This document shows positions 9,874 through 15,044 of a DNA stretch of 45,691 bases, piece after piece. The first letter of the stretch is position 1. Each line of letters opens with the position of its first letter. The notes below the pieces were generated by a model. The model ran no database searches and had not been told where the DNA came from. It saw only the letters and a list, made by a program, of their open reading frames with translations. This DNA is from a virus (lineage: Duplodnaviria; Heunggongvirae; Uroviricota; Caudoviricetes): IMG/VR virus record IMGVR_UViG_2531839130_000007, positions 1 to 45,691 of that record; one strand, given 5' to 3'. Made by a program: the position numbers and the translations under genes.

Positions 9874-10998
9874 ATGGTTAAGGCTAAAAACATGCCAAAT
9901 CCCATGCCAAAAACTAAGGCAAACAATGAGCCTTATCGCAAGGTAAAAATAACGATATGGGATGATCCCAAATTTAGGGCGTTATCTCCTCTGCCTCCAA
10001 GTGGACAGAGTTTGTTTATTTATCTGCTGACCAGTCCATTTACCGGGATTATTCCTGGGTTGTTTAAAGCCGGGCGGGCAGCAATGGCCGAAGAGTTGGG
10101 GTGGGATATCGAAGCCTTTGACTTAGCCTTAGGAGAAGCCATGAATCTTGGCATGGTGAAAGCAGATATCAAAGCCAGAGTTTTTTGGCTCCCGAATGCT
10201 GCGAAACACAATCCGCCAAACTCGATAAATGTCATTAAATCCTGGGCAAAGGCATTCGCTTTAATTCCTGATTGTCCTCTCAAATGGGAGGCCAGGGAAT
10301 CGCTGAGAGCCGCATCCTACGGGGTTTCTGAGGCTTTGGGGATGGCATTCGATAAGGCAATCCCTTTGCCTGAGGATAAGCCTAAGGATAAGGCTAACGC
10401 TTTGTCATGCGGTATCCAGATAACAGATAACAGATATATAAACCCCACACATAACGCGCGCGTGCGCGAGAGTGCTCCTGCCAGTGAGGCAAATGGCGTG
10501 CCGTTGCAAACAGCGGAACCTGATTACCTGGAAGGCCTGAGCGAACCCATCGGGAAATTTCCGATGACCGATGGCTGGCATCCGTCGCCGGATTTTCGAC
10601 GACGGGCTGCGCTGTGGGGCGTGGCTCTTCCTGAGCCGGAATTTACACCAGCTGAACTTGCCGCCTTCCGGGACTACTGGGCAGCGGAGGGTAAAGTTTT
10701 CACGCAGGTTCAGTGGGAGCAGAAATTCGCCCGTCACGTAAATCACGTCAGGGCGCAGGCTAAACCAGTCAGCAAGGGGGTAAAACATGCAGCAGCACCA
10801 GGTGGCACCGCATCACGGGCAGTTCAGGAAATTCGGGCAGCACGTGAGCAGTGGGAACGTGAAAACGGATTTATCAGCGACGGAAACGGCCTGGAAGCTG
10901 TGGGAACTCATGGGGGAGGTTTATTCGAACCGCTGGACCCAGAAGAACGGGGCCGCACCTTCGAAGCTCTGGATTGCACAGATTGGCGCGATGACTGA
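9874..10998 (+). CDS. Replication initiation / primosomal protein (O-position; DnaT-like C-terminal region)
   Basis: Start moved to ATG 9874 (GAGG upstream). Position after the immunity genes and before a P-like gene; C-terminal block resembles DnaT-type domains. Confidence 0.55.
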
Positions 10999-11452
10999 GC
11001 AGCAAATCCGACAGGTCTGCCGCCAGTGCATGGACCGCTGCCGGGCGGGTGAAACATGGCCTCCGGACCTGGCTGAGTTTGTGGCACTGATTTCGGAGAG
11101 TGGGGCAAATCCATTTGGTCTGACGGTGGATGCTGTGATGGAGGAGTACCGCCGCTGGCGCAATGAGTCCTGGCGATACGACGGAAGCGATAAATACCCA
11201 TGGACTCAGCCTGTGCTGTATCACATTTGCCTCGAGATGCGTTCAAAGGGGATTGAGCGCCAGATGACCGAAGGGGAATTAAAACAGCTTGCAGAACGGC
11301 AGCTGACGAAATGGGCAAAGCATGTTAGTAACGGCCTGAGCGTTCCGCCAGTCCGGCGACAACTGGCGGCACCCAAACGCCCGTCGGGGCCAACGCCAAT
11401 TGAGTTACTGAAACAGGAATATGAACGCCGGAAAGCGGCTGGGTTTGTTTGA
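10787..11452 (+). CDS. Replication protein P-like (helicase loader); start uncertain
   Basis: C-terminal half resembles remembered lambda P (...[22 protein letters not shown]...LSVPPV versus lambda ...ESYPWKSNAHYWLVTNLYQNM...IPEPV). Candidate starts 10787, 10910 or 10991; overlaps the upstream gene. Confidence 0.55.
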
Positions 11453-11486
11453 GTTGAGAAGTAATTTTTACCGGGAGGAAATTTTA

Positions 11487-12239
11487 ATGGAGACCGTTTT
11501 TGACGCACTGAAAGCGATGGGAAAAGCTACGTCGGTAGAACTGGCTGCGCGACTTGATATCAGTCGTGAAGAAGTGCTGAACGAACTATGGGAACTGAAA
11601 AAGGCTGGTTTCGTTGATAAAAGCGCGTACACCTGGCGTGTGGCTGATAACAACGTTCAGCAGGAACAGCCAGCGCCAGAAGAACAGCCGGAAGAAACCT
11701 CCACGGCGACAGTAGCGAAAATCTCAGAGTGCGATTTAACCGCGACGATTGAACAACGCGGACCACAAACGGCTGATGAGCTGGCTACATTGTTTGGTAC
11801 CACATCACGCAAAGTGGCTTCAACGCTGGCAATGGCAATCAGCAAAGGCCGTCTGATTCGTGCTAATCAGGACGGTAAATTTCGTTACTGTATGCCGGGC
11901 GATAATTTACCAGCAGAGCCGAAAGCAGCATCGGTAGCGGAAACTGATGGTAAAGCCTTTCCTCAGCCTGCATGCGTTGCGTTACCAGTACAGGAAGCTG
12001 CAACACAGGAAGATATTAAAACAGAGACTGTGGCGGACATTGTGCAGTCGCTGCCATCGTTTACTGAAACGAGAGCGGATGACCTGGTTTTACCATCGCT
12101 GCATATGGCAAACCGCGAACTGCGTCGGGCGAAAAATCATGTCCAGAAGTGGGAGCGAGTCTGCGCCGCGCTGCGGGAGCTGAACAAGCACCGGGATATT
12201 CTTCGGGATATTACCGCGAACGGAGAGCTGCAGCGGTGA
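11487..12239 (+). CDS. Hypothetical protein with N-terminal winged-helix-like region
   Basis: Start at ATG 11487 (GGGAGG upstream): [43 protein letters not shown]. Confidence 0.55.
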
Positions 12240-12553
12240 GTGGCTGGAAGAAGTGGTACGAGGCTGAAATCATGATACTCCGGCAGTGTGCGGGAACGAT
12301 GACGGTCGAAAGCATTGGGAGGCTGACCGGTCGTACAGGTGATGCTGTCAGAACGAAAGCGCGGGAACTGGGTGTCAGCCTGATGTTACGGGGTGATTAT
12401 CACCAGTCAACAAAATATCCGCAGAGTGATATTGAACTGGCGCGACAGCTGCATCAGCGTGGCGTACCCAGGAGAGAAATCGCCAGAAAATTTGGAATGC
12501 CGTTGCGCACAGTGAATAACTACGTTTATTTCGACAGGAGAGTTCAGGAGTGA
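12236..12553 (+). CDS. Hypothetical DNA-binding protein (two HTH-like segments)
   Basis: GTG start overlapping the upstream stop (GTGA); segments [22 protein letters not shown] and [15 protein letters not shown]. Confidence 0.45.
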
Positions 12554-12957
12554 GGGTGAGAGTTTATATTGCCGGTCCAATGACCGGGTATAAAAATTTC
12601 AACCGTGAGGCGTTCCACAATGCGGAAGAGGAACTGAAACGGGAAGGGCATACCGTCTTAAACCCGGCAGTACTTCCTGACGGGCTGACACAGCCGCAGT
12701 ACATGGATATCTGCATGGCAATGATACGCAGCGTGGATGCGATTTATATGCTGAAAGACTGGCAACGGTCAGCAGGCGCTAAGGCGGAACTGGCGCTGGC
12801 GGAGAAGCTAGGGCATGTGGTTGTTTTTCAGAGGGGAGGGGGCGATATGCCGATTCTCTGGTTTCAGGAGGTGTGGGAAGGTCTTGTGATTGTAGCCGAA
12901 ACAGTTCTTTTATTATGGTCTGTGATTGCGTGTGTTTTTATGATTTATTGTGAATGA
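12550..12957 (+). CDS. DUF4406-like (nucleoside 2-deoxyribosyltransferase-like fold) protein with hydrophobic C-terminal extension
   Basis: N-terminus [13 protein letters not shown]...VLNP...DW.RS.GAKAELALAEKLG resembles the family as remembered; the last ~40 aa are strongly hydrophobic. Confidence 0.5.
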   Translation: MRVRVYIAGPMTGYKNFNREAFHNAEEELKREGHTVLNPAVLPDGLTQPQYMDICMAMIRSVDAIYMLKDWQRSAGAKAELALAEKLGHVVVFQRGGGDMPILWFQEVWEGLVIVAETVLLLWSVIACVFMIYCE

Positions 12958-13061
12958 TGTGAATCTCGCTGTGGCCACTGAATTGCAACCATTACCCCCC
13001 TGTGATGTAATTGTGGGGTAATGGTTGCGCAGGCATAGCGACAGGACTGGATGAGAAAAAT

Positions 13062-13484
13062 ATGACGAAATTTACCAGAGAGCAATTGATTGCTCATGCT
13101 AATGAAAGTGTGAAATCCATGAAATTTGCTGCGCGACAGACCGCGTTTAAGACTTCAAAAGTTGCCATTGAAATGGATCTTGCGCTTGCCCGTATTGCGC
13201 TTGCCTCACTTGAAGCAATGCCAGTTGCATGGTCCTGTGCTCACAATATGGTTTTGTTCAATGCTGAATCTGTCGCGGCATACGCAAAACACTCAGCCAT
13301 TGCGCCAAAACCCCTGTACGCTGCGCAACCGGCATCACTTTCACATGAGGAAGAGTTGACAATGCTGGTTAAACAATTGGTAAGTCAGTTGAAAAAAGCG
13401 AAACCAGATTGCAAATTACCGGATATGGCGATGGAGTATCTGGAGCGGAATGGGCTGATAAGCGCGGAGGATGTTTTACGATGA
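13062..13484 (+). CDS. Hypothetical nin-region protein
   Basis: ORF track entry trimmed to the first ATG (MTKFTREQLIAH...); 140 aa. Confidence 0.5.
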   Translation: MTKFTREQLIAHANESVKSMKFAARQTAFKTSKVAIEMDLALARIALASLEAMPVAWSCAHNMVLFNAESVAAYAKHSAIAPKPLYAAQPASLSHEEELTMLVKQLVSQLKKAKPDCKLPDMAMEYLERNGLISAEDVLR

Positions 13485-13775
13485 CCTGGCCGGAGGCATT
13501 CACAACGACAGGAATTGCAATGGCGTCGGCACTTGTTGTGTATTCGGTTTGCAGATGGGGATAAAAACGGTTTGCGGGGAAATCTTAGTTAAGTAGAATG
13601 ACTGCGGGTGCTTGAGGCTATCTGTCTCAGGCATGAACACCAAAAGGCAGATAGAGAAAAGCCCCAGTTAACATTACGCGTCCTGCAAGACGCTTAACAT
13701 TAATCTGAGGCCCAATCTATGTCTCACAAATGTAGGTTAGCCTCTTACGTGCCGAAAGGCAAGGAGAAGCAGGCT

Positions 13776-13931
13776 ATGAAGCAGCAAAAGGCGATGTTAA
13801 TCGCCCTTATCGTCATCTGTTTAACCGTCATAGTGACGGCACTGGTAACGAGGAAAGACCTCTGCGAGGTACGAATCCGAACCGGCCAGACGGAGGTCGC
13901 TGTCTTCACAGCTTACGAACCTGAGGAGTAA
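13776..13931 (+). CDS. hokD: Hok/Gef-family type I toxin (HokD/RelF-like)
   Basis: MKQQKAMLIALIVICLTVIVTALVTRKDLCEVRIRTGQTEVAVFTAYEPEE: single TM helix plus conserved Cys and RTG...VAAF-like tail; AGGAGAAG Shine-Dalgarno; structured leader and terminator. Confidence 0.85.
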   Translation: MKQQKAMLIALIVICLTVIVTALVTRKDLCEVRIRTGQTEVAVFTAYEPEE

Positions 13932-13999
13932 GAGACCAGGCGAGGGAGAAATCCCTCGCCACCTCTCATGTGTCAGGCATCCTCAACGCACCCGCACTA

Positions 14000-14022
14000 A
14001 ACCCGCTTCGGCGGGTTTTTTG
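14000..14022. terminator. Intrinsic terminator at the 3' end of the hok transcript
   Basis: Stem acccgc/gcgggt with loop ttcg, followed by a T-run; a second hairpin (ggcgaggga/tccctcgcc) lies at about 13941-13962. Confidence 0.75.
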
Positions 14023-14432: not shown

Positions 14433-15044
14433 TTGGAGACAGCAATGGCGCATATACAACTGGTCAAACAAACCTCTTCTGGATTACTTCTCCCGGCGAC
14501 GCCGGAGAGTTGCGATTTTTTGCATCAAATCAAAATAGGTGAGTGGATACACGCGGACTTTAAGCGAGTGCGTAACTACGCGTTCCACAAGCGTTTTTTC
14601 AAACTCCTGCAACTGGGATTCGATTACTGGACTCCGGTCGGTGGGGCGATCACGCCTCGAGAACGAGAACTGGTGTCCGGTTTCGTTGAGTATCTGTGCG
14701 AATCAGTTGGTCGGGAACACACTCCAGCCCTGAGTGATGCCACAGAGCAATACCTTAATACAGTTGCGACATGCAGAACCCGGGATACGGCATTGCTAAA
14801 GTCGTTTGACGCTTTCCGCGAGTGGGTAACCATTCAGGCCGGATTTTACACCGAGCATATTTATCCTGATGGTAGTCGTGGGCCCAGGGCAAAATCTATC
14901 GCATTTGCGAACATGGACGAAACCGAGTTTCAGCAGGTTTATAAATCTGTACTGAATGTGCTGTGGAACTGGATCCTGTTCCGTAAATTTTCCTCTCCGG
15001 AGGAAGTCGAAAATGTGGCCGCGCAGTTACTGGAGTTTGCGTAA
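14433..15044 (+). CDS. Hypothetical nin-region protein
   Basis: 203 aa; stop overlaps the next start (TAATG). Confidence 0.55.
   Translation: METAMAHIQLVKQTSSGLLLPATPESCDFLHQIKIGEWIHADFKRVRNYAFHKRFFKLLQLGFDYWTPVGGAITPRERELVSGFVEYLCESVGREHTPALSDATEQYLNTVATCRTRDTALLKSFDAFREWVTIQAGFYTEHIYPDGSRGPRAKSIAFANMDETEFQQVYKSVLNVLWNWILFRKFSSPEEVENVAAQLLEFA

What the first reader, a model, noticed from the sequence alone, without database searches (positions are those of the whole stretch)
12550..12957. DUF4406-like protein fused to a hydrophobic C-terminal tail
The first ~95 aa look like a complete small nucleoside-deoxyribosyltransferase-fold protein as remembered, but the ORF continues for ~40 strongly hydrophobic residues. 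This could be a membrane-anchored variant, or a read-through fusion to a small membrane ORF after loss of a stop codon.
Basis: inference. Interest (0 to 1): 0.35.

Follow-up and report, generated by a model that had tools for sequence, protein, structure and literature searches.

The report
Frameshift fusion: DUF4406 gene plus membrane mini-ORF
In this E. coli prophage, a few extra bases in a run of G's put a complete small nucleotide-enzyme-like gene (DUF4406) in frame with the tiny membrane-peptide gene that overlaps its end, an uncommon natural variant and not a new kind of protein.

Summary
ORF 12550-12957 (+) encodes 135 aa. Residues 4-93 are a full-length Pfam DUF4406 domain (126 bits), and residues ~104-133 are one strongly hydrophobic helix.

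The tail is not part of the family. Other DUF4406 proteins stop within about 8 residues of the domain end or carry unrelated extensions.

The tail is a separate small ORF, ATG 12847 to stop 12957. It is 36 aa here and 41 aa in relatives, where some annotators call it "putative membrane protein". It has its own GGAGG ribosome-binding site.

A G-rich tract at 12833-12842 sets the frame in which DUF4406 reads into this ORF. The tract is GGGGAGGGGG here and G5 to G8 in related E. coli prophages.
- G6 (majority): a 116-aa DUF4406 plus a separate peptide.
- G5 or G8: a 137/138-aa protein in a third frame.
- G7 and the window's G4AG5: the fusion.

The window's own sublineage also has G4AG6 and G4AG7 alleles in the other two frames.

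The fusion is real. It appears in three NCBI assemblies and one independent read assembly.

It is most likely a tolerated by-product of slippage at a mutable tract. Interest is low to moderate.

The parts
12550..12957 (+). Fused ORF of 135 aa (GTG start). The GTG overlaps the TGA stop of the upstream HTH gene as GTGA at 12550-12553.
   Evidence: The exact protein is in public collections as P0121, and as P0133/ENA08750.1 with a start two codons later. It lies on contig AQER01000007.1 of 45,691 bp, which is this window.
12550..12834 (+). DUF4406 core (aa 1-95) with a nucleoside 2-deoxyribosyltransferase-like fold. DNA similarity to the great majority of E. coli DUF4406 genes ends at about 12834 (mosaic junction).
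   Evidence: Pfam PF14359, 126 bits, aa 4-93. PHROG 355 'nucleoside 2-deoxyribosyltransferase', E 7e-46. AF2 block-mean pLDDT 89-96 over most of the core, with dips at aa 11-20 and at the linker; Foldseek hits to NDT, DNPH1 and MilB. Most of the 1284 matching E. coli records and both phage records stop aligning at query position 418-440, which is window 12817-12839.
12833..12842 (+). G-rich tract GGGGAGGGGG that sets the frame of the DUF4406 3' extension. It is length-polymorphic among relatives: G5, G6, G7, G8, and G4AG5, G4AG6, G4AG7.
   Evidence: DNA alignments; tract tabulation; protein tails.
12835..12839 (+). GGAGG Shine-Dalgarno-like motif, 7 nt upstream of ATG 12847, lying inside the tract.
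   Evidence: Read directly from the sequence. Other DUF4406 modules have the same layout, with CAGGAGG in the F-Q-E codons followed 6 nt later by the next gene's start.
12847..12957 (+). Small hydrophobic ORF: 36 aa here (MPILWFQEVWEGLVIVAETVLLLWSVIACVFMIYCE), 41 aa in most relatives, 49 aa in a stop-loss variant.
   Evidence: Intact in all 33 loci tabulated, window included. The 41-aa form P0135 is annotated 'putative membrane protein' or 'hypothetical protein' and seen on 194 contigs. It is called as a separate 36-aa gene next to the 113-aa DUF4406 in L048.
12883..12948 (+). Codons of the predicted transmembrane helix (aa 112-133, LVIVAETVLLLWSVIACVFMIY).
   Evidence: KD peak 2.54; AF2 helix 104-133 with block-mean pLDDT about 73-90; 0 of 695 background open stretches reach 2.5.
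12864..12879 (+). Site of a 15-bp in-frame deletion relative to most relatives. TGTGGGAAAAAGAAA is lost between two TGTGGGAA direct repeats, removing EKEMW from the small ORF.

Best explanation
The 135-aa ORF is a natural in-frame fusion of two adjacent, overlapping genes in the early-right operon of a Rac/lambdoid-type E. coli prophage.

The two genes are:
- a complete DUF4406 gene, a minimal protein with the nucleoside 2-deoxyribosyltransferase/DNPH1 fold;
- a small ORF for a one-helix hydrophobic peptide, ATG 12847, with its own GGAGG ribosome-binding site.

In this module DUF4406 has no stop near the end of its domain and always reads on into the small ORF. A G-rich tract at the junction (12833-12842) sets the frame in which it does so, and the tract changes length by slippage.
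- G6 gives a 116-aa DUF4406 with a short basic, Cys-rich tail plus the separate peptide.
- G5 or G8 gives a 137/138-aa protein in the third frame.
- G7, and the window's G4AG5, give the fusion.

Shown: the anatomy, the alleles, and the reality of the fused allele.

Inferred: the fused state is a tolerated by-product, not a selected design, because the tract lies after the DUF4406 core and before the peptide's ATG, so neither unit is damaged. In this allele ribosomes would make a DUF4406 carrying a C-terminal membrane helix. Internal initiation at 12847 can probably still make the free 36-aa peptide.
For: - Domain complete at aa 93.
- Of 146 related DUF4406 proteins examined, 67 end within 8 residues of the domain end. 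Only P0121, P0133 and P0128 have a tail with KD above 2.5.
- In 36 of 5426 complete E. coli genomes the tail DNA is present. Match lengths are 221 (30 genomes), 220 (5) and 222 (1), against 211 in the window. Representatives show G6, G5 and G7.
- In 33 loci the tract is G6 in 23, G5 in 7, G7 in 1, G8 in 1 and G4AG5 in 1. The small ORF is intact in every one, while the DUF4406 tail takes three frames.
- G6 and G7 occur on identical flanks of about 940 bp. G5 occurs on two different haplotypes.
- The window's sublineage shows G4AG5, G4AG6 and G4AG7 at DNA level.
- The fused allele is on three NCBI assemblies and an independent Logan assembly. The G7 fusion is listed in 41 blocks of the collection (24 contigs read), including metagenomes.
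- The SD-plus-start layout matches the 'next gene' slot of other DUF4406 modules.
Against: - The small ORF has no homologue outside this module among 5.8 billion proteins. It also has none in phage or plasmid records or in species-representative genomes, where the only hit was one chance match.
- Its few substitutions (about 4 conservative non-synonymous to 2 synonymous) do not demonstrate purifying selection, so its status as a real gene rests on indirect arguments.
- Neutrality of the fusion is inferred, not shown.
- No expression data exist.
Confidence: 0.75

Rival explanations
1. The fusion is a selected, membrane-anchored DUF4406 variant. The C-terminal helix tethers the cytoplasmic enzyme domain to the inner membrane as a tail-anchored protein.
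For: Strong single C-terminal helix. The fused state is stably inherited in several assemblies and has arisen in two sublineages, G7 and G4AG5.
Against: It is a minority allele: about 25 contigs on record, against about 390 contigs for frame C and about 110 for frame B among the cluster members listed. The three frames interchange on near-identical haplotypes. The tail is absent from the rest of the family. No positively charged residues flank the helix in the 36-aa version.
Confidence: 0.1
2. The G tract is a contingency (phase-variable) switch, or a site of programmed transcriptional or translational slippage. It would toggle DUF4406 among three C-termini and tune coupling to, and the ribosome-binding-site spacing of, the membrane peptide.
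For: Single-G steps from G5 to G8, and from G4AG5 to G4AG7, on otherwise nearly identical DNA, with repeated independent changes. The tract overlaps the peptide's Shine-Dalgarno sequence.
Against: Runs of 5-8 G are short for high-frequency switching in a mismatch-repair-proficient E. coli (established knowledge of contingency loci). No frame switches off the DUF4406 core or the peptide ORF. No within-strain heterogeneity was observed: three assemblies and one read assembly agree. There is no canonical X XXY YYZ slippery heptamer in frame (sequence).
Confidence: 0.1
3. The fusion is a sequencing or assembly error at a homopolymer in a draft genome.
For: The window is a draft contig from 2013-era assemblies. 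PGAP flags the G5 and G7 alleles elsewhere as pseudogenes.
Against: The difference from G6 is 4 bases and includes an A that interrupts the run. The identical allele is found in GCA_000356665.2, GCA_000356425.2 and GCA_000357145.2 and in the independent Logan assembly of SRR446928; L038 has a different gene upstream (105 aa instead of 93 aa).
Confidence: 0.03
4. The hydrophobic ORF is not a gene. The tail is T/G-rich spacer that happens to be open, and DUF4406 simply runs on until a chance stop.
For: No homologues anywhere outside the module. Two of the three frames are open through the region. A stop-loss variant of the ORF is tolerated.
Against: The hydrophobic peak is higher than in all 695 background open stretches. 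Only 0.3% of shuffles are both open and as hydrophobic. The ORF is intact in 33 of 33 loci, including across a 15-bp deletion that is in frame. SD plus ATG sit where the next gene starts in other modules.
Confidence: 0.15

Closest known systems
DUF4406 (Pfam PF14359) proteins of lambdoid/Rac-type prophages of Enterobacteriaceae, e.g. WP_001310212.1 of E. coli O157:H7 and rac19 of phage Rac-SA53
   Same: The 95-aa core is the same (84-91% DNA identity). The position is the same, after the replication genes and the DUF1627 and HTH/DUF977 genes. The start overlaps the upstream stop in the same way, and the last codons contain the ribosome-binding site of the next gene.
   Different: Those proteins are 96-101 aa and stop a few codons after F-Q-E. 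Here the downstream module supplies no nearby stop, so the ORF continues for 41 codons through a membrane-peptide ORF.
Nucleoside 2-deoxyribosyltransferase / DNPH1 (Rcl) / MilB-BcmB N-glycosidase fold family
   Same: The predicted fold matches, with Foldseek probability 1.00 to 2a0k, 6qai, 8pqr, 4ohr and 9da6. An invariant S-x-G-x-x-x-E motif (S74, G76, E80) sits at a position that recalls the catalytic Glu motif of that family. The motif's invariance is; the equivalence to the catalytic Glu is inference from memory and was not superposed here.
   Different: The core is only about 95 aa, against 130-160 aa. Sequence identity is 14-23% and TM-scores are 0.5-0.6. There is no Pfam match to the NDT family itself at E <= 0.01. 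Activity is unknown.
Slipped-strand length polymorphism at homopolymeric tracts (contingency loci of Neisseria, Haemophilus, Campylobacter, Bordetella)
   Same: A mononucleotide G run inside coding sequence changes by single units and shifts the downstream frame.
   Different: The tract is short (5-8). It lies after the functional domain, so it changes only the C-terminal appendage and not ON/OFF state. Reversible switching within a strain has not been shown.
Small one-helix hydrophobic peptides of prophages, including type I toxins such as HokD encoded 0.8 kb downstream
   Same: It is 36-41 aa with a single hydrophobic helix and lies in the accessory region of a prophage.
   Different: It has no sequence similarity to Hok/Gef or to any family. 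No antisense RNA or promoter was detected. Toxicity is unknown.

Membership tests
DUF4406 (PF14359) | Match to the Pfam model above the gathering score over the full model | tested here: met
   126 bits against a cut-off of 22; profile positions 2-91 of 91; aa 4-93
DUF4406 (PF14359) | Family-invariant residues present (Y6, G13, N18, R19, P39, P43, G45, D53, S74, G76, E80 and others) | tested here: met
   All 22 invariant columns of the 45-sequence alignment are defined on, and present in, the window protein
DUF4406 (PF14359) | Single-domain protein that ends just after the domain (96-101 aa) | tested here: not met
   There is a 41-aa extension. 67 of 146 relatives end within 8 residues of the domain end, and the hydrophobic tail occurs only in P0121, P0133 and P0128. 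The core is still a member; the architecture of this allele is atypical.
Nucleoside 2-deoxyribosyltransferase-like fold superfamily | Flavodoxin-like three-layer fold superposable on NDT/DNPH1/MilB | tested here: met
   AF2 mean pLDDT 83.7, with most of the core near 90. Foldseek top hits are 2a0k_A (E 4e-5), 6qai, 8pqr, 4ohr and 9da6, at TM 0.5-0.6.
Nucleoside 2-deoxyribosyltransferase (enzyme family PF05014) | Sequence membership or glycosyl-transfer activity | tested here: not met
   No Pfam hit other than DUF4406 at E <= 0.01. No PDB sequence match. Activity is not testable with these tools.
Phase-variable contingency locus | Simple-sequence tract in or before a gene, with length differing among close relatives | tested here: met
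   G5, G6, G7, G8 and G4AG5, G4AG6, G4AG7 on nearly identical flanks
Phase-variable contingency locus | Frequent reversible switching within a clone, with an ON/OFF effect on a functional product | not testable with these tools
   This needs read-level or culture data. From sequence, every frame leaves the DUF4406 core and the small ORF intact, so there is no simple ON/OFF effect.
Tail-anchored inner-membrane protein | Single transmembrane helix at the extreme C-terminus with a soluble N-terminal domain | tested here: inconclusive
   Predicted helix 104-133 of 135, KD 2.54. Insertion and topology cannot be tested here, and the helix has no flanking positive charges.
Type I toxin-antitoxin | Small hydrophobic toxin ORF plus an overlapping or adjacent antisense RNA | tested here: inconclusive
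   The peptide feature is present. There is no Rfam match over 12800-13600 (the only strong hit is sok at 13606-13781, which belongs to hokD) and no promoter-like site on either strand in 12400-13800. A consensus scan cannot exclude an antisense RNA.

The most novel reading that the evidence does not exclude
The junction G tract would be a genuine switch. Slippage in DNA, or at low level in RNA or on the ribosome, would distribute one prophage enzyme domain among a soluble form, an alternative-tail form and a membrane-anchored form. At the same time it would alter the Shine-Dalgarno spacing and the translational coupling of an orphan membrane peptide. That would give lysogen populations heterogeneous expression of an accessory (possibly toxic or exclusion) function.
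Probability: 0.08. Interest if true: 0.55.

Novelty: new member of a known kind. Interest (0 to 1): 0.25.

Why it matters
The main value is for annotation and for a small point of biology.

Automated pipelines treat this locus inconsistently. It is called a 116-aa gene, a 133-139-aa "hypothetical protein", or a pseudogene "missing C-terminus", depending only on the G-tract length. The 36-41-aa membrane ORF is usually left unannotated.

Recognising the layout (a DUF4406 core, a mutable junction tract, and an overlapping small membrane ORF) prevents a lineage-specific fusion from being read as a new membrane-bound enzyme family. It also flags an orphan prophage micro-peptide, found here mainly in human stool and ETEC-named E. 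coli isolates, that could be tested for toxicity or exclusion.

It also illustrates how mosaic junctions at gene ends in lambdoid phages create unconstrained 3' extensions in which indels accumulate freely.

Tried and rejected
- **Distant homologues of the small ORF.** The word-indexed search of 5.8 billion proteins returned only the ORF itself. tblastn against plasmids found nothing. Sensitive blastn of 12835-13062 against phages found nothing.
- **PDB by sequence.** No meaningful hit. A fold search was needed.
- **NCBIfam.** No model for any of the three proteins tested.
- **Literature.** Three papers mention DUF4406 and none is relevant. Nothing was found on deoxyribosyltransferase in lambdoid phages or on this tract.
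- **Promoter and terminator scan of 12400-13800.** Nothing found, so there is no support for an independent transcript or an antisense RNA.
- **dN/dS-style reading of the small ORF.** There are too few substitutions (about 6) to be informative.
- **Programmed -1 frameshifting.** Considered and set aside, because no in-frame X XXY YYZ heptamer exists.
- **Sequencing error.** Rejected on the evidence of four concordant assemblies.
- **One mis-specified call.** One search used the wrong coordinates for the downstream gene and was repeated.

Full report
**What is at the coordinates**

The window is contig AQER01000007.1 (45,691 bp) of an E. coli draft genome of the P0299917 group. The region is the early-right arm of a Rac/lambdoid-type prophage. 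Its genes, in order, are:
- a lambda-P-like replication gene, 10787-11452;
- a DUF1627 gene, 11421-12239;
- a small helix-turn-helix gene ending at 12553;
- the ORF in question, 12550-12957;
- a 140-aa gene of unknown function, 13062-13484;
- a sok/hokD type I toxin-antitoxin, 13606-13931;
- a DUF1367 gene, 14433-15044.

The ORF starts with a GTG that overlaps the upstream stop (GTGA) and encodes 135 aa.

**Check of the observation**

Pfam DUF4406 matches aa 4-93 over essentially the whole model (positions 2-91 of 91), at 126 bits against a cut-off of 22. PHROG 355, labelled "nucleoside 2-deoxyribosyltransferase", matches aa 1-97.

An AlphaFold2 model was built on 45 family sequences. Its mean pLDDT is 83.7, with most of the core near 90. 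It has the alternating strand-helix fold. Its best PDB matches are nucleoside 2-deoxyribosyltransferases (2a0k, 6qai, 8pqr), DNPH1 and the CMP N-glycosidases MilB and BcmB, at Foldseek probability 1.00 and TM about 0.5-0.6.

After a low-confidence linker at residues 97-101, the model shows one long helix at 104-133. The Kyte-Doolittle 19-residue mean peaks at 2.54 for residues 112-130.

This is not what chance open frames give. None of 695 open stretches of 30-70 codons in the six frames of the window reaches 2.5. Only 0.3% of composition-matched shuffles of the tail are both open and as hydrophobic.

**Where family members end**

I examined 146 related DUF4406 proteins.
- 67 end within 8 residues of the domain end, typically as ...F-Q-E plus 2-5 residues.
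- Others carry unrelated extensions. One example is a recurrent 203-207-aa two-domain form.
- A hydrophobic tail occurs only in the window protein (P0121, and P0133 with an alternative start) and in P0128.

At the DNA level, most of the 1284 E. coli records and both phage records that match the gene stop matching at about window 12817-12839. A mosaic junction therefore lies at the very end of the domain. The tail is not a conserved part of the family.

**What the tail is**

Thirty-six of 5426 complete E. coli genomes, many of them ETEC-named strains or human stool isolates, carry the tail DNA. In all of them it lies downstream of a DUF4406 gene.

In these genomes PGAP annotates a 116-aa DUF4406 that ends ...FQRGAICRFSGFRRCGKKKCGKVL. 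The hydrophobic sequence is a separate overlapping ORF in another frame: MPILWFQEVWEKEMWEGLVIVAETVLLLWSVIACIFMIYCE, 41 aa. Some depositors annotate it as "putative membrane protein", and it is on record from 194 contigs (P0135).

In the window the same ORF starts at ATG 12847. It is 36 aa because of a 15-bp in-frame deletion between two TGTGGGAA repeats.

GGAGG lies 7 nt upstream of this ATG. Other DUF4406 modules have the same layout: the F-Q-E codons (CAGGAGG) act as the ribosome-binding site of the next gene, which starts 6 nt later. The small ORF therefore occupies the normal "next gene" slot.

**Why it is fused here**

Between Q94 and the ATG lies a G-rich tract, GGGGAGGGGG here (12833-12842). 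Its length sets the frame in which DUF4406 reads on.

In 33 loci (the window, 7 complete genomes and 25 IMG/VR contigs) the tract and its products are as follows:

| Tract | Loci | Product |
|---|---|---|
| G6 | 23 | 116-aa DUF4406 plus a separate peptide |
| G5 | 7 | 137-aa (135 aa from the second GTG) protein in the third frame, tail RYADSLVSGG...YDLL |
| G8 | 1 | 138-aa protein, same third frame |
| G7 | 1 | 139-aa fusion to the hydrophobic ORF |
| G4AG5 (window) | 1 | 135-aa fusion |

The window's own sublineage is marked by the 15-bp deletion and the interrupting A. Public assemblies of this sublineage also hold G4AG6 (134 aa, third frame) and G4AG7 (113-aa DUF4406 with the 36-aa ORF called separately). 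Both were verified at DNA level.

G6 and G7 occur on identical flanks of about 940 bp. G5 occurs on two distinct haplotypes. The tract has therefore changed repeatedly and independently, in single-G steps. That is the signature of slipped-strand mispairing.

The small ORF is intact in every locus. One clade has a stop-loss variant of 49 aa.

No allele has a stop codon between the DUF4406 core and the ATG. The fusion is therefore a frame effect, not the loss of a stop.

**Is the fused allele real?**

Yes. The exact 135-aa protein is encoded in three NCBI assemblies and in an independent Logan assembly of SRR446928, one of them with a different upstream gene. The difference from G6 is 4 bases and includes an A, which is not a typical homopolymer miscall.

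The G7 fusion is listed in 41 blocks of the collection, of which the 24 with the longest contigs were read. They include gut metagenomes.

Fused alleles are nevertheless a minority. Among the cluster members listed, contig counts are about 390 for the G6-type frame, about 110 for the third frame and about 25 for the fusions. These counts cover only part of the cluster, since 15 of 37 members were listed.

**Most likely mechanism**

Shown:
- There are two coding units joined at a mutable tract.
- The tract lies after the last conserved DUF4406 residue and before the peptide's start codon, so no tract length damages either unit.

Inferred:
- Selection does not police the DUF4406 3' extension, and all three frames circulate.
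- The window allele makes a DUF4406 with a C-terminal membrane helix, a tail-anchor-like topology.
- The strong internal ribosome-binding site probably still allows the free peptide to be made.

I put the "tolerated by-product" reading at about 0.75.

Rivals:
- A selected membrane-anchored variant, about 0.1.
- A true phase or slippage switch that also tunes the peptide's ribosome-binding site and coupling, about 0.1.
- The hydrophobic ORF is not a gene, about 0.15. This overlaps with the main reading as regards the fusion mechanism.
- A sequencing artefact, about 0.03.

**Weak points**

The small ORF is an orphan. It has no relative outside this module among 5.8 billion proteins, phage records, plasmids or species-representative genomes. 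Its six or so substitutions are too few to show purifying selection.

Its status as a gene rests on four indirect arguments:
- its extreme hydrophobic profile;
- its intactness in 33 of 33 loci;
- the in-frame nature of the 15-bp deletion;
- its canonical SD-ATG placement.

The function of DUF4406 is itself unknown. No paper in the library addresses it. The match to the NDT/DNPH1 fold and the invariant S-x-G-x-x-x-E motif suggest a nucleotide or nucleoside N-glycosidase or binding role. That is inference.

**Comparison and novelty**

The core is an ordinary member of DUF4406. The fused architecture is a lineage-specific allele already deposited as a "hypothetical protein" (ENA08750.1).

The tract behaves like a short simple-sequence hotspot. 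It lacks the defining ON/OFF consequence of contingency loci, and switching within a strain has not been shown.

The finding is real and now explained. Its practical value is mainly for annotation: PGAP calls the G5 and G7 alleles pseudogenes and omits the small ORF.

Interest is 0.25.

Noticed in passing
window 12984-13029: A strong hairpin lies in the gap between the small ORF and the next gene: TGCAACCATTACCCC, a loop of about 16 nt, then GGGGTAATGGTTGCG (14 Watson-Crick pairs plus one G-U). The RNA fold of 12955-13065 has MFE -40.4 kcal/mol, z -4.4, and 0 of 200 shuffles fold as well. No T-run follows, it is not called as a terminator, and there is no Rfam match. It is conserved in the 7 related E. 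coli loci aligned; the C-run next to the loop varies between C5 and C6. Its function is unknown.
   Followed up: partly
window 13606-13931: A complete sok/hokD type I toxin-antitoxin lies 0.65 kb downstream. Rfam sok scores 120 bits (gathering score 59) at 13606-13781. The Hok/Gef ORF is at 13719-13931, Pfam E 3e-23.
   Followed up: partly
window 13940-14021: A sub-threshold match to the IsrK Hfq-binding sRNA (31 bits against a gathering score of 50, E 2.6e-4, full model length) lies just after hokD. It may be a diverged IsrK-like element of the kind found upstream of late-gene regulators in Salmonella prophages. This was not pursued.
   Followed up: no
L006 1251-1541 (E. coli TW10690) and L007 1251-1532 (2014EL-1346-6): RefSeq/PGAP annotates the G7 and G5 alleles of this DUF4406 gene as pseudogenes ('incomplete; missing C-terminus'), although the domain is intact. 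The 41-aa ORF is not annotated in any of the 7 RefSeq genomes inspected.
   Followed up: yes
L009 and L019, L021, L034 (small ORF stop): One clade has TGA changed to TGG at the small ORF's stop. This extends it from 41 to 49 aa (...YCEWCESRGGH).
   Followed up: partly
proteins P0067, P0089-P0120 (E. coli, 203-207 aa): A frequent two-domain DUF4406 architecture carries a conserved C-terminal extension of about 106-110 aa (SPTNIECQVAPHIYRELVNALRD...). It is seen on many E. coli contigs and is unrelated to the tail studied here.
   Followed up: no
protein P0136 (50 aa; ECP02999174_1130 of E. coli P0299917.4): Sibling isolates of the source strain also carry a G5 allele without the 15-bp deletion. 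This implies a second prophage with the same module elsewhere in the genome. There is only one copy in this window.
   Followed up: partly
window 12149-12553 / 12550: The upstream HTH gene (PHROG 323 'transcriptional regulator, D5-like', E 6e-28) ends in a TGA that overlaps the GTG start of the DUF4406 ORF (GTGA). This suggests translational coupling along the operon.
   Followed up: no
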